A stretch of DNA of 64,000 nucleotides, from assembly GCA_028699255.1 (NCBI GenBank), contig JAQVUX010000003.1, positions 146,654 through 210,653 of the forward strand, written 5' to 3'. The stretch's first letter is position 1. Each line of letters starts with the position of its first letter. A program made the translations under genes and the position numbers. This DNA is from Candidatus Omnitrophota bacterium (GTDB taxonomy: Bacteria > Omnitrophota > Gorgyraeia > 2-01-FULL-45-10). Below are positions 17,241 through 27,839 of this stretch, one piece after another. A model generated the notes under the pieces. That model ran no database searches, was not told where the DNA came from, and saw only the letters and a list, made by a program, of their open reading frames with translations.

Positions 17241-17995
17241 ACCTTCGGGATAGAGCAAAGAAGATATTATATCTGCTTGAAGCCGCGTACGGCCGTCCCG
17301 CGCTGTTTGTCAAAGACGAGCCCGTGGATGTTCTTGTGCGCACGATATTGTCGCAAAATACGTCGGACAAAAACTCTGTCCCGGCTTTTAACGCGCTCAA
17401 AAAACATTTCGTGTCGTGGGAGAGGGCGCTTTGCGCGCCGGTACCGGAGATAACAGAGATAATAAAACATGCGGGCCTGGCGAATATAAAAGCGCGCAGG
17501 ATAAAAGCGGTTCTCGCGGAGATAAAAAAGCGCGAAGGCAGGATTGACTTGGCCGGTCTTGACCGTTTAGACGATGAAGGCGCGGGTGAATACCTCGAAT
17601 CGCTGGGCGGGGTGGGGCCGAAGACGGCCTCGTGCGTCCTTTTGTTCGCGTTCGATAGGCCCGTAATGCCGGTTGATACGCATATTTTCCGGGTGGCTAA
17701 ACGGTTGTCCCTTATAGGCGCCGGTACGGACATAAAACAGGCGCATAAAGCGTTGACAAAAATTATTCCAAAGGACTTGATATACGCCTTCCATTTATGT
17801 ATAATAGTGCACGGTCGCAGGACCTGCAAATCGCAAACCCCAAAGTGCGGGGTTTGTGTTGTTTATGGCCTTTGTGGATATGAAAAGAAATCCGTCATTG
17901 CGAGCGAAGCGAAGCAATCTAAAAACGAGATTGCTTCGGATTCGCCTGCCTTCGGCAGTCAGCCGCATCCTCGCAATGACGATGAAAGCGAGTAA
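17237..17995 (+). CDS. nth: Endonuclease III-family HhH-GPD DNA glycosylase with a [4Fe-4S] loop; the C-terminal ~35 aa are encoded by an inserted palindromic repeat
   Basis: HhH-GPD motifs (LVRTILSQNTSD, GVG.KTA) and a C-x6-C-x2-C-x5-C cluster (CKSQTPKCGVCVVYGLC). The tail VIASEAKQSKNEIASDS... coincides with the repeat at 17892-17981. Confidence 0.75.
   Translation: MNLRDRAKKILYLLEAAYGRPALFVKDEPVDVLVRTILSQNTSDKNSVPAFNALKKHFVSWERALCAPVPEITEIIKHAGLANIKARRIKAVLAEIKKREGRIDLAGLDRLDDEGAGEYLESLGGVGPKTASCVLLFAFDRPVMPVDTHIFRVAKRLSLIGAGTDIKQAHKALTKIIPKDLIYAFHLCIIVHGRRTCKSQTPKCGVCVVYGLCGYEKKSVIASEAKQSKNEIASDSPAFGSQPHPRNDDESE
17892..17981. repeat. Nested palindromic repeat, full copy: CGTCATTGCGAG-GAAGCAATCT-loop-AGATTGCTTC-CTCGCAATGACG
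   Basis: Seen directly. The outer inverted repeat is cgtcattgcgag/ctcgcaatgacg and the inner one is gaagcaatct/agattgcttcg. Related copies occur at 62181-62262, 24107-24145, 35085-35117 and 13845-13895. Confidence 0.8.
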
Positions 17996-23115: not shown

Positions 23116-23352
23116 ATGTGTAAAGACGTATTTTTGTTTTGCCTATCGCTTGCGCTCGGTTACGTTCTTTGCGTTATCGCGAAGAAACAGGTTTCAGTAT
23201 TGAAAACTCTTGGTTATACGCTCGGCGTATCGATAATAGCGCTCACCTTTCTTACGGCCCTTATCGCGGTTCATACGGCACCTGCGATCAAATGCCCTTG
23301 CGGCCATATGCACGGCAAGATGCCCTGCATGGCGATGATGAAGCATAAATAA
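23116..23352 (+). CDS. Small two-TM membrane protein with a Cys/His/Met-rich C-terminus (CPCGHMHGKMPCMAMM), possibly metal-binding
   Basis: Two hydrophobic helices followed by a Cys-His-Met cluster. Function not assignable. Confidence 0.4.
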   Translation: MCKDVFLFCLSLALGYVLCVIAKKQVSVLKTLGYTLGVSIIALTFLTALIAVHTAPAIKCPCGHMHGKMPCMAMMKHK

Positions 23353-23961: not shown

Positions 23962-23987
23962 GATTTCAAAAAGTTAGTTTTATCCAC

Positions 23988-24016
23988 TTGACATATCTTT
24001 CCGCTGTGGTAAACTA
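23988..24016 (+). promoter_or_regulatory. Putative sigma70 promoter TTGACA-16/17-TAAACT
   Basis: Seen directly: ttgaca at 23988-23993 and taaact at 24010-24015. Confidence 0.45.
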
Positions 24017-24050
24017 AACATACTTTTGCATTCGGTTTATATGGACAACG

Positions 24051-24085
24051 ATGCTTGGCGCTAGAAAGGCCAGGCATTTTTTTAT
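24051..24085 (+). other. Hairpin plus U-run (atgcttggc-N9-gccaggcat-TTTTTTT) in the leader of the large ORF; intrinsic terminator, attenuator or short-RNA 3' end
   Basis: 9 bp stem with one mismatch followed by T7, about 35 nt downstream of the putative promoter. It resembles the hairpin/U-run in the rplM leader at 27360-27386. Confidence 0.4.
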
Positions 24086-24106
24086 TATTAAAGTATTTTA
24101 ATTCTT

Positions 24107-24145
24107 CCGTCATTGCGAGCGAGGCGAAGCCGAGCGAAGCAATCT
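24107..24145. repeat. Half-copy of the nested palindromic repeat (CCGTCATTGCGAGCGAGGCGAAGCCGAGCGAAGCAATCT)
   Basis: Seen directly. It lies 20 nt upstream of the start of the large ORF and abuts its RBS (aagagggg). Confidence 0.7.
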
Positions 24146-24164
24146 AACAAGAGGGGATTTGAAT

Positions 24165-27100
24165 ATGATAACGAAAATAATATCCTTGGTGGTCGCGAGC
24201 GCGTTTCTGCTCAACAGCGTCGCGTATGGTTTGGGCACTATGCCCGGCACTACACAGCCGGCTGTGCAGGATGAGATGATTAACATGCTTCGCGACGGAC
24301 TTCTTAAGAAGGGGCCAAGCGCGTTGAGAGATGCCCTGTCATCGGAGACGATCCACGCGGAGTTTAGCCCGTCGGTGGAACCGGCGGCAAACGGTATCAG
24401 GCTTCTGGACGGAGTTCCGGCCGGTATGGAAAGTGATCCGGCATTTAACGCCGAAAACCTCGCTGAGGCGATCGAAAAAGTTTTGCCGGGCGATGTTGTT
24501 TCTGTGGATAATTATCGCGCCGATAACCCGGGAGACTTTCCCGTCGCTAAGATGAGCCGTGACGGCGATAGAAAAAAATGGACAGTGCATGAATATATGG
24601 CTTCAGCATGGGAGAATATAAAGTCCCGAGATGTCATTTTTACATACACTTATCAGGATGGGCATGCTGAGGCATTCAGCCTGGCCAGTTTATTACTCGA
24701 CGAAGTAACAAGCCTTGGCAAAAGGCCGCATGACGACGGCCGCACAGGTATCGTGCGCGATGCCGTAAGGGCGTGGTTTGTGGGTTCATACTGCCTGTCG
24801 AATGAAACAAGATATAATAACGATAAGCTCGAAGAGAGAGTAAGGTGGTTTTGCCGCGACGCCAAAGCCGCAGAAATGGGTTTCTTAAAAGCGTTTCCAT
24901 ATATGGCCGAAACCGACGAGACGCTTGCGCGCGGCGTAGAACTTGTGCGTTTCATAAACCGCTGTTTCTACGCTCCAGATAAACAAGTCGCGCAGTCCGA
25001 CGCGGAGCAGGCGGGGACAGATCAAAGTAATGCTACCGAAACAATCCCCTCCGAAGTAAAACAAAAAATAGCAAGCGTGATGTTTACGCATGTGAAGTAC
25101 ACTCCCGATTGGGATGAGAATATTCATGGGCAGATTGCCGACTCAGGCCTGACGGCAGAATCTTTTATTGCTTCGAATCCTACCGAGCTTGAAAAGCTGA
25201 TCACGTCCGCCTGCGAACGCTATATTAAACTGTCAGTCGAAAGAGTTTCTAAAGCGTGTAAAAGCGATGTTTTGATGGTAACTGAATTCGCCGATGTCCG
25301 AGAAGTTATAGCAGGCGCCCAGGAGTTGCTGTGGGAGAAATTCCTGGAAGAATTAACAGGCGATACGGCAATAATCAAGATGCCGGGAGTTTTTGCGCAA
25401 AATGAAGAGATGCGCAGACAGCTGAACGAACTTGTTAGGCCCGCCTTCTATAGTGTAGTTGCGGAAGCATTTAAGAAATTCGGCTTAAGCATGCCGTCGC
25501 AAGCACAGCCGCGAGATCCCAAGACCGGTAGATTTGAGACAAAATTGCCGGGAAGTCCGGCGATGGTGCTTTTATTGTTTGCCTATTGCGGTAAACTCGA
25601 TGATAAGATCACAGCAAAGACGCATCGCAGGATAGCCGATGATTTTTCAGGGTTTGTGAATATTTCTGACCGTACTTTAAGGCGCGATAGAGAAGTACTA
25701 AGGGAAGCGGGCTATCTCATAGATATTATAGATAGCGATGCCGATCAGATAGAGAGCGACGTCAGCCCGGTTACATATAAGCTTAGCGCTTCCGGCAAAA
25801 AAGCGGCAAAGGCTTTACTGAACAGATTAAGAAAAAAGTACGGGCCTGTTGTGCGATACGCGATATTCGATGAATTTTCATCCGGCAATAAGCAAATCCG
25901 TGAAGACATAAAAAAGATGGACGCGAAAATCAAGAAGAAGATAGTAGAAGAAAAGCTGAGAGCCGCCGCTTATGTGACGCTCATAAGGATAAAAAATTCC
26001 GAAGACCTGCACGATTATGCGCGTCGTGGATTATTAACGGTAACCGATTTTATGGAAGAGTTAGAGTTCCCTGATATGGACCGCAATACTATTAGTGACC
26101 ATTTCGATGAGCTTAGGGAACGGAAGGAGATTGAATACTCAGACTATTTAAAAGATGGAGAGCGTTGTTATGGGTATTGTAATGACAAACGTTTCCGTGG
26201 AGCTGGCGTTCGTTACGTGTGGGGTCAATATTATAGGACACCGTCGATGACTGTGCCCGAAGCCATATCCGGCGATCAGCCGGTGACGAATACCGTATTA
26301 AATACAGCCGTGAATGATGTTACTCCTAGAGATTTCGGCAGGCACTTCATGTCGGACGCTCCGCGTACGCCGGAAGATAGAAGTAAACGCCCTGGAGTGC
26401 CGGGTTTGGACAGCGAAATTGCGAGTTTGGAGCAACGTTCTCCGACGGACACGGCTGAGAATGCCACGATCATGCTTAGACGTACGGCGGCAATGGAAGA
26501 ATTTAAAAATTATCCGTTTATTACCGACATAAATACGGTGGAATTTGCTCTTCCTATCGCCCCGGAGGTTGGGCCGAGTAGCGATACGAAAGATTTTCGT
26601 TTAAGCCGGGAGCAGATACTTAATATATGGAAGACGGTTAATCTCGCCCACGAGGAAAGGGTAAAGATACTGCTATTGCAGGATGAGGTAGGCCCTACGG
26701 GCACGACGATGGACGCCGCTTTGCACGATATAAGAAACCGCATCAGGAATGCCGGCGGTAATGATGACACCATCGATTTTGAGTTATTTCAGGGCGAGGA
26801 TAATCTCGAAACTCTTCTCGACCCCAACAAGGATGAATCCAGTAAGCGTGTAAAGAGAATAGTCCTTACCGTGGGGAGCAGATCCCGGGGAATGGTAAGT
26901 AACCTGGTAGACAGGCGTCCAGAGCTTTTTAAGAAGGCGCGTTCACTCGGTATAGAACTCCCGGTGGATTATTACGATTTTAAGCCGAATTCCAAAGAAA
27001 GGACGTTCTATCAGGCGAGCATGCTTTTAAGGGGCTGGAACGCGGCGATCATTGATAACACCAAAAGGACAACGGCGGCCAGCATTTTATTTACGAACAT

Positions 27101-27296
27101 GCTGAAAGGTTGTTATGACGGTGATATAGGCGTACTATTAAAGCAATTAGTACCGGTAGAGAACGAAACGGATAAAGAAACGAAGGAGAGGATTAACAGC
27201 TGTTCAAATAGCGCCATACGATTGCTTTCCCAGAAGACAGCGGCCGCGATAGAAAACTTGAAGTTGATCATGAGAGAGTTCTGGACAGCGGCATAA
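24165..27296 (+). CDS. Large hypothetical protein (~1043 aa) with an N-terminal signal peptide or TM anchor and two internal winged-helix-like segments; no catalytic motif recognised
   Basis: Start ATG at 24165 (MITKIISLVVASAFLLNSVAYG), RBS aagagggg. One internal segment, ...FVNISDRTLRRDREVLREAGYLIDI, resembles a DeoR/HTH_11-type wHTH; a second is ...LLTVTDFMEEL...RNTISDHFDELRERKEI. No Walker, protease or nuclease motifs were seen by eye. Confidence 0.5.
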   Translation: MITKIISLVVASAFLLNSVAYGLGTMPGTTQPAVQDEMINMLRDGLLKKGPSALRDALSSETIHAEFSPSVEPAANGIRLLDGVPAGMESDPAFNAENLAEAIEKVLPGDVVSVDNYRADNPGDFPVAKMSRDGDRKKWTVHEYMASAWENIKSRDVIFTYTYQDGHAEAFSLASLLLDEVTSLGKRPHDDGRTGIVRDAVRAWFVGSYCLSNETRYNNDKLEERVRWFCRDAKAAEMGFLKAFPYMAETDETLARGVELVRFINRCFYAPDKQVAQSDAEQAGTDQSNATETIPSEVKQKIASVMFTHVKYTPDWDENIHGQIADSGLTAESFIASNPTELEKLITSACERYIKLSVERVSKACKSDVLMVTEFADVREVIAGAQELLWEKFLEELTGDTAIIKMPGVFAQNEEMRRQLNELVRPAFYSVVAEAFKKFGLSMPSQAQPRDPKTGRFETKLPGSPAMVLLLFAYCGKLDDKITAKTHRRIADDFSGFVNISDRTLRRDREVLREAGYLIDIIDSDADQIESDVSPVTYKLSASGKKAAKALLNRLRKKYGPVVRYAIFDEFSSGNKQIREDIKKMDAKIKKKIVEEKLRAAAYVTLIRIKNSEDLHDYARRGLLTVTDFMEELEFPDMDRNTISDHFDELRERKEIEYSDYLKDGERCYGYCNDKRFRGAGVRYVWGQYYRTPSMTVPEAISGDQPVTNTVLNTAVNDVTPRDFGRHFMSDAPRTPEDRSKRPGVPGLDSEIASLEQRSPTDTAENATIMLRRTAAMEEFKNYPFITDINTVEFALPIAPEVGPSSDTKDFRLSREQILNIWKTVNLAHEERVKILLLQDEVGPTGTTMDAALHDIRNRIRNAGGNDDTIDFELFQGEDNLETLLDPNKDESSKRVKRIVLTVGSRSRGMVSNLVDRRPELFKKARSLGIELPVDYYDFKPNSKERTFYQASMLLRGWNAAIIDNTKRTTAASILFTNMLKGCYDGDIGVLLKQLVPVENETDKETKERINSCSNSAIRLLSQKTAAAIENLKLIMREFWTAA

Positions 27297-27325: not shown

Positions 27326-27354
27326 TTGACAGCATCCGGGCGATGTGTTATTAT
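27326..27354 (+). promoter_or_regulatory. Sigma70 promoter TTGACA-17-TATTAT for rplM-rpsI
   Basis: Seen directly: ttgaca at 27326-27331 and tattat at 27349-27354. Confidence 0.6.
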
Positions 27355-27359
27355 CATTC

Positions 27360-27386
27360 GCCTCTACGGAAGAGGCATTTTTTTAT
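27360..27386 (+). promoter_or_regulatory. Leader hairpin (gcctct-acgga-agaggc) followed by a U-run, upstream of rplM; possible attenuator or r-protein autoregulatory leader
   Basis: Seen directly, lying between the promoter and the rplM RBS. Confidence 0.4.
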
Positions 27387-27407
27387 ATTTCAACTTACGG
27401 AAAGATT

Positions 27408-27839
27408 ATGAAGACATATATCGCAAAAGATAAAGACATTCAGAAGTCATGGCACGTAGTCGATGCCACAGATCAGGTCCTTGGCAGGCTTTCGGCCAAG
27501 GTTGCGTCCATTCTCATGGGTAAGAATAAGGTCATCTATTCGCCGCATCAGGATACGGGTGATGAAGTTATCGTTATAAACGCCGCCAAGATAAAAGTTA
27601 CCGGTAAAAAGATGGGCCAGAAGATTTATAAGAGATATTCGGCTTATCCGGGCGGGCTGAATACCGAAACTCTCGAAGCTACCATGAAGAAGAAGCCGGA
27701 ACATGCTATCAGGCACGCGGTACACGGGATGTTGCCGAAGTCGAAACTCGGCGCGAAACTGCTGAAGAAACTGAGAGTGTATGCCGGGGATAAGCATCCT
27801 CACCAGGCCCAACAGCCGAAAATATTAAAGATAGGTTAA
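27408..27839 (+). CDS. rplM: 50S ribosomal protein L13
   Basis: MKTYIAKDKDIQKSWHVVDATDQVLGRLSAKVASILMGK is a classic L13 N-terminus. The tabulated start at 27345 lies within the promoter and leader. Confidence 0.95.
   Translation: MKTYIAKDKDIQKSWHVVDATDQVLGRLSAKVASILMGKNKVIYSPHQDTGDEVIVINAAKIKVTGKKMGQKIYKRYSAYPGGLNTETLEATMKKKPEHAIRHAVHGMLPKSKLGAKLLKKLRVYAGDKHPHQAQQPKILKIG

What the first reader, a model, noticed from the sequence alone, without database searches (positions are those of the whole stretch)
23962..27296. Orphan 1043 aa signal-peptide protein with embedded winged-helix-like segments, its own promoter, and no recognisable catalytic domain
One gene with its own TTGACA-N-TAAACT promoter, a leader hairpin/U-run and a repeat half-copy at its RBS sits between housekeeping genes (HAD hydrolase upstream, rplM-rpsI downstream). 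It is the largest unassigned protein in the window. It starts with a cleavable-looking signal peptide, yet contains two segments that read like cytoplasmic wHTH DNA-binding domains (ISDRTLRRDREVLREAGYL; TVTDFMEEL...RNTISDHFDELRERKEI). A secreted protein with DNA-binding-like modules and no recognisable enzymatic motifs is an unusual combination. It is the best candidate here for an undescribed function: surface or periplasmic nucleic-acid-binding protein, defence or effector protein, or a mis-called membrane-anchored regulator.
Basis: partly seen in the sequence, partly recalled or inferred. Interest (0 to 1): 0.7.

Follow-up and report, generated by a model that had tools for sequence, protein, structure and literature searches.

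The report
Capped modular secreted protein family, Omnitrophota
The "orphan" gene is a shrunken, fast-evolving member of an undescribed protein family in Omnitrophota bacteria, in which a secretion signal and two constant end domains flank a swappable middle that in relatives holds whole cytoplasmic enzymes and transcription regulators.

Summary
The ORF (24165-27296, 1043 aa), its Sec-type signal peptide, promoter, leader hairpin with U-run and repeat half-copy are all real. It is not an orphan. An exhaustive HMMER search found 143 cluster representatives, and every named one is from Omnitrophota.

They share an N cap (signal peptide plus a ~300 aa domain starting at residue 1) and a C cap (the last ~260 aa, ending FWxxA). 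The middle between them ranges from about 0 to 4159 aa. In relatives it holds transketolase, PFK, GPI, NAD-dependent enzymes, a Ser/Thr kinase, sigma-70, RNA polymerase alpha-CTD, CsrA and HTH domains.

The caps match nothing in Pfam, NCBIfam, PDB sequences or PDB folds. A 3385 aa member sits at the same locus (HAD - gene - rplM) in a related genome. Flanking proteins there are 64-90% identical, but the caps only 25-36%. X has also lost the N cap's conserved His-Glu motif.

The promoter and hairpin leader are conserved with compensatory changes, and they recur upstream of other large signal-peptide genes.

The best reading is an exported modular carrier or effector-type protein; that mechanism is inferred. 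The wHTH segments get only sub-threshold support.

The parts
23988..24015 (+). Candidate sigma-70-type promoter: -35 TTGACA, 16-nt spacer, extended -10 TGgTAAACT
   Evidence: 10 of 12 matches, TG present. Both hexamers are conserved in the syntenic loci L018 and L008 and in L022, L002, L014 and L016. Function is not tested.
24041..24101 (+). Conserved leader element. It is a 10-bp hairpin (24050-24059 pairing with 24069-24078), a U-run (24077-24083) and an AT-rich tail. It looks like a terminator or attenuator and lies between the promoter and the RBS.
   Evidence: Fold. Covariance model R1 scores it 69.4 bits, E about 1e-12, and it is the only hit in the 64 kb window. 6 of 10 pairs show compensatory changes, 91% of cells are paired, and 0 of 500 shuffles reach this. 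No Rfam family matches.
24108..24145 (+). Half-copy of a REP-like palindromic repeat. The full copy is at 17893-17981. Here it is inserted between the leader and the RBS.
   Evidence: It is absent from the orthologous intergenic regions of L018 and L008, so the insertion is specific to this lineage.
24151..24156 (+). Ribosome-binding site GAGGGG, 8 nt before the ATG
   Evidence: Read from the sequence. GGAGG-like boxes sit at the same place in the aligned loci.
24165..27296 (+). Coding sequence of X (1043 aa plus stop)
   Evidence: Identical to NCBI 'MAG: hypothetical protein PHS46_03790 [Candidatus Omnitrophica bacterium]'.
24165..24230 (+). Sec-type signal peptide, aa 1-22 (MITKIISLVVASAFLLNSVAYG | LGT)
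   Evidence: The only KD19>1.6 segment in the protein. The family-wide pattern is about +2.5 charges in the n-region, an ~18 aa uncharged h-region, A/S/C at -3, Y/F at -2 and G/A at -1. Cleavage is predicted, not shown.
24231..24980 (+). N cap domain, aa ~23-272 (alpha/beta). This is a divergent copy: the family's H-E-M-x-D motif reads L-D-E-V-T here, and a ~30 aa loop is deleted.
   Evidence: Homology. AF2 pLDDT exceeds 90 over aa 70-270. Motif loss is shown. The leave-X-out HMM score is 183 bits against a family median of 424.
24981..26447 (+). Variable middle, aa 273-761. It is mostly helical with disordered linkers and has no significant Pfam domain.
   Evidence: There is no family-wide coverage of this region.
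25500..25994 (+). Shared middle module, aa 446-610, containing the first wHTH-like segment (aa 498-520)
   Evidence: Homologous to P0035/P0146 (41-44% identity), P0004 residues 1781-1949 and P0005 residues 491-630. HTH_11 E=0.033 in X, HTH_11 0.17 and HTH_34 0.24 in the homologues, all below threshold.
26019..26129 (+). Second wHTH-like segment, aa ~619-655
   Evidence: HTH_20 E=0.049, 14 bits against a cut-off of 27. Helices 615-632 and 640-652 have low to medium pLDDT. Weak evidence.
26448..27293 (+). C cap domain, aa 762-1043. It has a four-stranded parallel alpha/beta core followed by a helical bundle, and it ends at the C-terminus with F-W-T-A-A.

Best explanation
X is a reduced, rapidly diverged member of an Omnitrophota-restricted family of modular proteins. 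Each member has a conserved 5' cassette (promoter, attenuator-like leader hairpin, Sec signal peptide), an N cap domain, an exchangeable middle and a C cap domain that ends exactly at the C-terminus.

Shown: family membership, the architecture, positional orthology with a 3385 aa member, conservation of the leader, and the lack of any match of the caps to known families.

Inferred: the protein is made from its own promoter, with read-through of the leader hairpin being regulated. It is then exported by Sec and its signal peptide is cut after A-Y-G.

Proposed, and the least certain step: the two caps are the constant machinery that carries, anchors or delivers whatever lies between them. The middles are cargo of cytoplasmic type that make most sense acting in another cell's cytoplasm. 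On this view the family is a modular effector or display platform of these host-dependent bacteria.

X's own cargo is a helical region with two HTH-like segments. X has lost the N cap's conserved His-Glu motif, so in X the N cap is likely structural rather than catalytic.
For: Family and architecture:
- 143 representatives match. 88 have both caps. The N cap always starts at residue 1 and the C cap always ends at the last residue. Middles span about 0-4159 aa.
- The smallest members (591-725 aa) are essentially N cap plus C cap.

Cargo:
- P0089 is N cap, a full transketolase (residues 341-934) and C cap.
- Other cargo: PFK and CsrA; GPI and 2-hydroxyacid dehydrogenase; NAD-epimerase, inositol monophosphatase, His-phosphatase, alanine dehydrogenase, HAD, PHP and GH5; a protein kinase and RidA; sigma-70 r2/r4, GT9, HEAT and HTH_11; RNA polymerase alpha-CTD.
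- The kinase keeps GxGxxG, VVIK, HRDIK and DLG, and sigma region 2 is canonical.

Export:
- A canonical Sec signal-peptide pattern occurs in 75 members.
- 115 of 143 members have no other hydrophobic segment.

Taxonomy:
- All named members and all 16 genome loci are from Omnitrophota-lineage MAGs. The phylum is reported as host-dependent or episymbiotic (PMC10066038; bioRxiv 10.64898/2026.06.07.730766).

Orthology:
- L018 has leuCD-leuB-asd-truA-HAD-[3385 aa member]-rplM-rpsI-argC-argJ.
- Flanking proteins are 64-89% identical, while the caps are 25% (N) and 36% (C) identical.

Leader:
-.
- It also precedes other large signal-peptide proteins and scores 30-74 bits there. Look-alike terminators in another lineage score below threshold.
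Against: - No experiment or dedicated predictor (SignalP, DeepTMHMM) was available, so export and cleavage are inferred from sequence rules.
- No secretion or injection machinery is a conserved neighbour. How cargo would leave the periplasm is therefore unknown.
- Several cargo enzymes need ATP, NAD or ThDP, which argues against a periplasmic function but does not prove delivery to a host.
- Simple motif checks did not find the canonical ThDP (GDG...N) or PFK (GGDG, PKTIDND) motifs in two cargo enzymes. Some cargo may be catalytically dead.
- X carries no recognisable cargo domain.
- X's caps are among the most divergent in the family. X may be losing function.
- The fold of the caps gave no functional clue.
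Confidence: 0.45

Rival explanations
1. Membrane-tethered cytoplasmic scaffold. The N-terminal helix is an uncleaved anchor, or is not translocated as predicted. The caps hold enzymes and regulators at the inner face of the cell's own membrane. This would organise metabolism, or sequester regulators such as sigma-70 and CsrA until they are released.
For: - The cargo is typical of the cytoplasm and depends on cofactors.
- Nielsen & Lui (10.64898/2026.06.07.730766) report that 46% of Omnitrophota proteins of 10,000 aa or more are predicted to be membrane-anchored with cytoplasmic bulk.
- No secretion-system neighbours are conserved.
Against: - The positive charge lies on the N-terminal side of the helix (+2.5 before it, against roughly neutral after it).
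- Small residues at -3 and -1 fit a cleaved, N-in signal peptide, which puts the bulk of the protein outside.
- The cleavage-site motif is conserved well beyond what an anchor needs.
Confidence: 0.2
2. The caps are the business end. The N cap (conserved H...H-E-M-x-D...G-H, possibly a metal-dependent hydrolase) and the Rossmann-like C cap together form an enzyme or a self-processing module. The middles are accreted accessory domains, or polyprotein segments released by cleavage. X, which lacks the His-Glu motif, would then be an inactive derivative.
For: - The His/Glu/Asp/His positions are conserved in about 90% of N caps.
- Minimal members consist of the caps alone.
- West-Roberts et al. (10.1101/2023.11.21.568195) propose autoproteolytic processing of Omnitrophota giant proteins.
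- Seven of 97 N caps, including X, lack the motif and the adjacent loop.
Against: - The motif is not a known zincin signature (my own knowledge).
- A subfamily keeps the signal peptide and C cap but lacks the N cap core. The two caps are therefore separable.
Confidence: 0.15
3. One reading: X is a secreted or surface nucleic-acid-binding protein, or a membrane-anchored transcription regulator, acting through two winged-helix domains.
For: - In X and in two orthologous segments the best, though sub-threshold, Pfam matches are all HTH families.
- AF2 secondary structure around aa 465-540 runs helix-helix-helix and then a short beta-hairpin.
- Relatives carry bona fide HTH_11, sigma-70 and alpha-CTD domains.
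Against: - All HTH scores fall below the gathering thresholds.
- pLDDT in these segments is only 35-74.
- The conserved parts of the protein are the caps, not the HTH-like parts.
- No operator-like repeats or divergent target gene were seen.
Confidence: 0.1
4. X is a decaying remnant: a positional ortholog that has lost most of its middle and its N cap motif and is drifting toward pseudogenisation.
For: - X is 1043 aa against 3385 aa at the same locus.
- The N cap is 25-27% identical to both orthologs, which are 50% identical to each other, although the three genomes are equidistant (leuB about 90% in every pair).
- X has the third-lowest N cap score of 97.
- GC3 is 0.51 against 0.54-0.65 in the neighbours.
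- A repeat has inserted into the leader.
Against: - An uninterrupted 3.1 kb ORF is retained, with an intact signal peptide, RBS, promoter and leader.
- Most invariant cap residues are kept: G123, W204, R225, N265, R926, Q950, R1009 and the FW..A end.
- AF2 folds both caps with pLDDT above 90.
Confidence: 0.1

Closest known systems
Omnitrophota very long proteins: 'Archaeovorins', dockerin-type giants and 'multi-enzyme metabolic cluster' giants (West-Roberts et al. 2023, bioRxiv 10.1101/2023.11.21.568195; Nielsen & Lui 2026, bioRxiv 10.64898/2026.06.07.730766)
   Same: - Same phylum.
- An N-terminal signal peptide or TM segment combined with cytoplasmic-type enzyme, kinase, HEAT and regulatory domains strung along one polypeptide.
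- Poorly conserved sequence, and function unknown.
   Different: - Those studies cover proteins of 10,000 aa or more, with many TM helices, C39/S8 peptidase, SecA-like or dockerin domains, and T2SS/pilus neighbours.
- This family is 0.6-4.8 kAA and usually has one hydrophobic segment.
- It is defined by two specific cap domains and a conserved leader that those papers do not mention.
- None of the 143 hits exceeds 4765 aa.
MARTX toxins (established knowledge)
   Same: Conserved N- and C-terminal regions bracket a variable set of effector domains that act in another cell's cytoplasm. This is the closest logical analogue for 'constant ends, swappable middle'.
   Different: - MARTX toxins have glycine-rich repeat regions, a cysteine protease domain, T1SS export and no Sec signal peptide.
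- None of these features is present here.
- Cargo here consists of housekeeping-type enzymes and regulators, not toxins.
Classical autotransporters (type Va secretion; established knowledge)
   Same: A Sec signal peptide, a variable passenger and a conserved ~250-300 aa C-terminal domain that ends at the C-terminus with an aromatic-rich tail.
   Different: - The C cap is predicted with high confidence to be an alpha/beta core plus a helical bundle, not a beta-barrel.
- No autotransporter Pfam domain is found.
- There is also a conserved N cap.
Multigene families of variable surface proteins with a conserved 5' UTR and signal peptide, for example Mycoplasma vlp/vsp/vsa genes (my own knowledge, not tested here)
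   Same: Paralogous genes share a highly conserved promoter, leader and signal-peptide cassette, while the mature protein is variable and mosaic.
   Different: - Those are small lipoproteins that vary by repeats or site-specific inversion.
- No recombinase sites, lipobox or phase-variation repeats were seen here.
- The conserved leader here is a terminator-like hairpin.
HTH_11 / HTH_20 winged-helix regulators (Pfam PF08279, PF12840)
   Same: The segment ISDRTLRRDREVLREAGYL resembles the recognition-helix region of HTH_11, and the best Pfam hits are HTH families.
   Different: Scores of 12-14.5 bits lie well below the gathering cut-offs of 25-27. The context is a 1043 aa signal-peptide protein rather than a small cytoplasmic regulator.

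Membership tests
Omnitrophota 'capped' modular protein family (defined in this report; unnamed, all members annotated as hypothetical) | N cap homology that starts at residue 1 | tested here: met
   phmmer and jackhmmer matches of X aa 1-290 to 111 representatives. X scores 183 bits against a leave-X-out profile.
Omnitrophota 'capped' modular protein family (defined in this report; unnamed, all members annotated as hypothetical) | C cap homology that ends at the last residue (F-W-x-x-A) | tested here: met
   X aa ~760-1043 matches 119 representatives, always at their C-termini. The leave-X-out score is 195 bits.
Omnitrophota 'capped' modular protein family (defined in this report; unnamed, all members annotated as hypothetical) | Family-type Sec signal peptide (K-rich n-region, F-L-x-N in the h-region, A/S-[YF]-[GA] | L-[SG]-[PT]) | tested here: met
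   X reads MITKIISLVVASAFLLNSVAYG|LGT. 75 members share the pattern. Cleavage itself cannot be tested here.
Omnitrophota 'capped' modular protein family (defined in this report; unnamed, all members annotated as hypothetical) | N cap motif A-K-H-E-M-x-D ... G-G-G-H ... A-N-x-I-G-G-R-Y (about 90% of members) | tested here: not met
   X has L-L-L-D-E-V-T and lacks the ~30 aa loop. Six other representatives are the same. X is therefore a divergent member.
Omnitrophota 'capped' modular protein family (defined in this report; unnamed, all members annotated as hypothetical) | Conserved promoter and hairpin leader upstream (present in a subset of members) | tested here: met
   R1 scores 69.4 bits at window 24041-24101. 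Covariation is shown.
Winged-helix DNA-binding regulators (Pfam HTH_11, HTH_20, HTH_34) | A domain score above the Pfam gathering threshold | tested here: not met
   HTH_11 14.5 bits (cut-off 25), HTH_20 14 bits (cut-off 27). The full-length scan lists no HTH family.
Winged-helix DNA-binding regulators (Pfam HTH_11, HTH_20, HTH_34) | A three-helix bundle plus beta-hairpin wing in a confident structure | tested here: inconclusive
   The secondary-structure order is compatible (H465-475, H480-494, H503-525, short strands at 529-538), but pLDDT is 35-74.
Autotransporters (type V secretion) | A C-terminal 12-stranded beta-barrel translocator | tested here: not met
   The C cap is modelled at pLDDT above 90 as four parallel strands plus helices. 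There is no Pfam autotransporter hit.
MARTX / RTX type I secretion substrates | Gly-rich or RTX nonapeptide repeats, a cysteine protease domain and absence of a Sec signal peptide | tested here: not met
   No such Pfam domains occur in X or in 45 scanned relatives. A Sec-type signal peptide is present.
Omnitrophota giant proteins (10,000 aa or more; Archaeovorin and dockerin types) | Length of at least 10,000 aa, many TM helices, C39/S8 peptidase, SecA-like or dockerin domains | tested here: not met
   X is 1043 aa with one hydrophobic segment and none of these domains. The family maximum is 4765 aa. Definitions are taken from the papers read.
Known anti-phage defence systems (PADLOC) | A match to any defence protein model | tested here: not met
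   0 families at E<=1.

The most novel reading that the evidence does not exclude
The shared promoter-leader-signal-peptide cassette and the two caps define a previously unknown modular export and delivery platform. Through it, host-dependent Omnitrophota would send cytoplasmic-type proteins into or onto partner cells to reprogram them. The cargo includes glycolytic and pentose-phosphate enzymes, a Ser/Thr kinase, sigma-70, RNA polymerase alpha-CTD, CsrA and HTH modules. A new attenuator RNA would switch the whole set on together. X would be one such effector, with a nucleic-acid-binding payload.
Probability: 0.25. Interest if true: 0.9.

Novelty: new variant of a known kind. Interest (0 to 1): 0.72.

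Why it matters
Omnitrophota are widespread, uncultured, ultra-small bacteria thought to live on other cells. Their huge signal-peptide proteins studded with "cytoplasmic" enzymes are an open puzzle, and they are too large to study directly.

This family shows the same paradox at a tractable size. Members of 591-1266 aa include N cap-transketolase-C cap. The family has defined constant domains, a clear insertion point and a conserved regulatory leader.

That makes several questions directly testable:
- Are these proteins exported?
- What do the caps bind?
- Is the cargo active?
- What controls the leader?

If the delivery reading is right, this would be a new class of inter-cellular effector system. 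If the tethering reading is right, it would be a new way of organising metabolism in minimal cells. Either way, two new domain families and one new candidate RNA motif are defined.

Tried and rejected
1. The word-index homolog search with X returned only X itself. The same search with a 33-sequence profile also returned only X. The candidate list was probably swamped, so that call was wasted. The family appeared only in the index-free HMMER search.
2. Single-sequence AF2 was useless, with mean pLDDT 36.5. The model built from the alignment was usable for the caps only.
4. Profile searches of PDB sequences gave nothing.
A tighter alignment, A3, worked, but it used only two peptide patterns, so copy number per genome is underestimated.
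6. X has no paralog and no internal repeat in the window. No window protein resembles family cargo.
7. No gene neighbour is conserved across loci, and no secretion machinery is adjacent. I rejected the mobile-element and defence-island readings, because the gene holds a fixed position between housekeeping operons in three genomes.
8. I rejected 'generic terminator' as the explanation for the leader hairpin. The model finds one copy in the 64 kb window, and only upstream of this gene class elsewhere. The bare hairpin motif does also occur as a probable ordinary terminator next to NfeD-like genes in another lineage.
9. Regex checks of catalytic motifs in cargo were inconclusive for transketolase and PFK.

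Full report
OBSERVATION. The ORF is real. It runs from 24159 (TTG) or 24165 (ATG) to 27296 on the + strand. The ATG start gives 1043 aa, has GAGGGG 8 nt upstream, and equals the NCBI protein 'MAG: hypothetical protein PHS46_03790 [Candidatus Omnitrophica bacterium]'. The flanks are leuB-asd-truA, a small ORF and HAD upstream, and rplM-rpsI-argC-argJ downstream. Base composition and GC1/GC2 match the neighbours. GC3 is somewhat lower, 0.51 against 0.54-0.65. X has no significant match in Pfam, NCBIfam, PHROGs, PADLOC or PDB sequences. It has no paralog and no internal repeat in the window.

NOT AN ORPHAN. The word-index search found only X itself. An index-free phmmer scan of 1.84 billion cluster representatives found 143 relatives at E<=1e-3, 94 at E<=1e-10 and 15 at E<=1e-30. 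The matches fall into two blocks. One covers X aa 1-~290. The other covers aa ~760-1043 and always ends at the hit's last residue. Iterated local searches show that 88 representatives carry both blocks. The N block always begins at residue 1, the C block always ends at the C-terminus, and the middle ranges from about 0 to 4159 aa. Total lengths are 591-4765 aa. I call these blocks the N cap and the C cap. Every member that carries a source name is from Candidatus Omnitrophota or Omnitrophica. All 16 loci found in GTDB species genomes are Omnitrophota-lineage MAGs. Some are deposited as 'uncultured Planctomycetia', and one is Ca. Aadella gelida, phylum Omnitrophota.

THE CAPS. The N cap consensus contains strongly conserved positions: H142, W149, D156, S172, A174, A-K-H-E-M-x-D, G-G-G-H, A-N-x-I-G-G-R-Y, N-D-A-I-W-x-W-F-L-G-S-Y, T-R-Y-N-N, R225, E-F-P and N265. 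The C cap consensus has G-P-G, I-E-I-x-x-P-Q, K-R-I-V-I-T-D, R926, P933, Q950, A-I-L-A-R-L-x-E, R1009 and a terminal F-W-x-x-A. With an 82-row alignment, AF2 models both caps of X at pLDDT above 90. The N cap (aa 70-270) is a mixed alpha/beta domain. The C cap (aa 770-1043) is a four-stranded parallel alpha/beta core followed by a helical bundle. The middle stays at low to medium confidence. Without the alignment the model was useless.

THE MIDDLES ARE CARGO-LIKE. Pfam scans of 45 relatives show whole, mostly cytoplasmic-type domains lying between the caps.
- P0089 carries a full transketolase at residues 341-934, between an N cap ending at 342 and a C cap starting at 994. It covers positions 12-623 of a 627-position NCBIfam transketolase model.
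- P0047 carries PFK and P0025 carries CsrA.
- Cupin-type GPI and 2-hydroxyacid dehydrogenase were also found.
- So were NAD-epimerase/dehydratase, inositol monophosphatase (3.8e-61), His-phosphatase, alanine dehydrogenase, HAD/S6PP, PHP, NHL and GH5.
- P0038 carries a Ser/Thr protein kinase and RidA.
- P0022 carries sigma-70 regions 2 and 4, GT9, HEAT and HTH_11.
- Three members carry RNA polymerase alpha-CTD.

The kinase keeps its Gly loop, VVIK, HRDIK and DLG motifs, and sigma region 2 is canonical. Simple regexes did not find the ThDP or PFK signature motifs, so the activity of those two enzymes is open. X's own middle has no significant domain. Its aa 446-610 form a module shared with P0004, P0005 and the cap-less protein P0035/P0146 at 31-44% identity. 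In that module and in aa 619-655 the best Pfam matches are HTH families, but all are below threshold: HTH_11 0.033, HTH_20 0.049, HTH_34 0.24.

SIGNAL PEPTIDE. X has one hydrophobic segment, at the N-terminus. Across 75 members the n-region carries +2.5 charges on average. The uncharged h-region is about 18 aa. Position -3 is A, S or C, -2 is Y or F, and -1 is G or A, followed by L-[SGA]-[PT]. This fits a cleavable Sec/SPase I signal by the established rules (positive-inside, -3/-1). It remains an inference, because no dedicated predictor or experiment was available. 115 of 143 members have no further hydrophobic segment, and a few have one to three in the middle.

POSITIONAL ORTHOLOGY AND RATE. 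In a related genome (L018, a 710 kb contig) the order is leuCD-leuB-asd-truA-HAD-[P0004, 3385 aa]-rplM-rpsI-argC-argJ-argB..., the same as in the window on both sides. L008 shares the upstream half. Flanking proteins are 64-89% identical between the window and L018. The family gene aligns only at 36% (C cap), 25% (N cap) and 31% (one middle module), and it differs in length by 2342 aa. The three genomes are about equidistant, with leuB near 90% in all pairs. Even so, the N caps of L018 and L008 are 50% identical to each other, while X is 25-27% identical to both. X has replaced H-E-M-x-D with D-E-V-x-S and lost the adjacent ~30 aa loop, as have 6 of 96 other N caps. Its leave-X-out N cap score is the third lowest of 97. 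X is therefore a resident, vertically inherited gene, but a strongly derived and shrunken one.

NO CONSERVED PARTNER. Elsewhere, family genes sit among unrelated housekeeping genes, once as a tandem pair in L003. No partner gene or secretion apparatus is conserved next to them.

LEADER. The promoter-like site at 23988-24015 is not remarkable on the scan alone, which found 7 sites against 6.7 expected. Its -35 and extended -10 are, however, near-invariant in the orthologous intergenic regions. They also align in four further loci, at least one of which (L022) has a demonstrably different gene context. Downstream of a spacer of variable length lies a 10-bp hairpin with a U-run (window 24050-24083) and an AT-rich block, about 50-80 nt before the start codon. 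A covariance model (R1) finds it once in the 64 kb window. In 316 kb of window plus family loci it finds only seven copies, all upstream of family genes. Of its 10 pairs, 6 show compensatory changes and 91% of cells are paired. No shuffle out of 500 reaches this, and the slid controls drop to 26-54%. Two caveats apply: there are only seven sequences, and the alignment was fitted to the model. Rfam has no match.

An exact-motif scan of metagenome contigs gave 32 loci. Scored with the full model, the 15 best loci (about 30-74 bits) break down as follows:
- six cap-family genes;
- five other large proteins that share the family-type signal peptide, and in two cases middle modules, but lack the caps;
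- two further large proteins with hydrophobic, signal-like N-termini;
- one pseudopilin-like gene;
- one locus cut off by the contig end.

Eight look-alike hairpins next to NfeD-like genes in another lineage fall below threshold. A subfamily (P0076, P0109, L030) has the signal peptide and C cap without the N cap core. So the family is the core of a mosaic set of large exported proteins. They share a 5' cassette of promoter, leader and signal peptide, they shuffle modules, and they are plausibly co-regulated by attenuation at the hairpin. The alternatives are that the promoter and hairpin make a short RNA, or that the hairpin also terminates the upstream operon. These are not excluded.

The repeat half-copy at 24108-24145 is real. 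It is a lineage-specific 29-nt insertion into this leader.

MECHANISM. Shown: the family, the architecture, the orthology, the leader and the novelty of the caps. Inferred: Sec export and regulated read-through. Proposed: the caps are constant carrier or anchor modules, and the middles are cargo.

The cargo includes sigma-70, alpha-CTD, CsrA, an ATP-dependent kinase and NAD- or ThDP-dependent enzymes, which only make sense in a cytoplasm. Omnitrophota are reported as host-dependent episymbionts or predators (PMC10066038; 10.64898/2026.06.07.730766). I therefore favour an effector or display platform, with confidence about 0.45 for the whole chain. Membership alone stands at about 0.95 and export at about 0.7.

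Four rivals remain:
- a membrane-tethered cytoplasmic scaffold (0.2);
- the caps as an enzyme or self-processing module, with X an inactive form (0.15);
- X as a decaying remnant (0.1).

COMPARISON AND NOVELTY. The general phenomenon is described in two preprints: Omnitrophota long proteins that have signal peptides or TM helices and carry enzyme and regulatory domains. Those preprints cover proteins of 10,000 aa or more with other hallmarks. They do not mention these caps or the leader, and further literature searches found no description. The logical analogues are MARTX toxins and autotransporters, but their defining features were tested here and not met. I rate the finding a new variant of a known kind. 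It comprises two new domain families, a new architecture class and a candidate new cis-regulatory RNA. X itself is an atypical, reduced member.

Noticed in passing
window 24041-24101; also L018 7907-7965, L008 5905-5965, L022 9912-9971, L002 375-435, L014 5923-5979, L016 5894-5954, and L024-L053: The leader hairpin upstream of X is a recurrent element with covariation. It is not in Rfam. It precedes cap-family genes, other large proteins with the same type of signal peptide, and one pseudopilin-like gene (L041). It may mark a regulon of exported proteins.
   Followed up: yes
window 17893-17981 and 24108-24145: An 89-nt REP-like palindromic element (CGTCATTGCGAG...CTCGCAATGACG, with an inner hairpin CGAAGCAATCT/AGATTGCTTCG). 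A half-copy is inserted in X's leader, and that insertion is absent from the orthologous regions in L018 and L008.
   Followed up: partly
window 27326-27408: rplM has the same design as X. A strong promoter-like site (TTGACA-17-TATTAT, 11 of 12 matches, with TG) is followed at once by a GC hairpin plus U-run (27360-27383), ahead of the rplM start at 27408. This looks like a ribosomal-protein leader attenuator, yet no Rfam family, including L13 leaders, matched at E<=1.
   Followed up: no
window 23116-23352: A 78 aa ORF between truA and HAD with hydrophobic helices and a Cys/His/Met-rich tail (CPCGHMHGKMPCMAMMKHK). It is called as a gene in the Logan assembly with no Pfam hit. It is absent from L018, where truA directly abuts HAD.
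   Followed up: partly
L003 5980-8337 and 8517-11384: Two cap-family genes (786 and 956 aa) lie in tandem. This indicates local duplication of family members.
   Followed up: no
L020 3313-9998 (and L005 533-5773): Directly upstream of the 4765 aa member P0022 lies a 1747 aa HATPase_c protein with its own signal-like N-terminus, preceded by a phage-type integrase and HTH genes. The same 1747 aa neighbour appears in L005.
   Followed up: no
P0035/P0146 (MDD5437463.1, MDD5136344.1); L025, L031: Middle modules of cap-family proteins also occur in Omnitrophota proteins that lack both caps. Examples are X aa 446-617 matching P0146 residues 351-523 at 41% identity, and L025 residues 170-419 matching P0004 residues 988-1234. 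This points to module shuffling across families.
   Followed up: partly
L049 (same 710 kb contig as P0004, Ga0265297_10000020): A second gene with the same leader hairpin and a family-like signal peptide (1423 aa, no caps detected) lies in the genome that carries X's 3385 aa ortholog. One genome can therefore hold several genes with this 5' cassette.
   Followed up: partly
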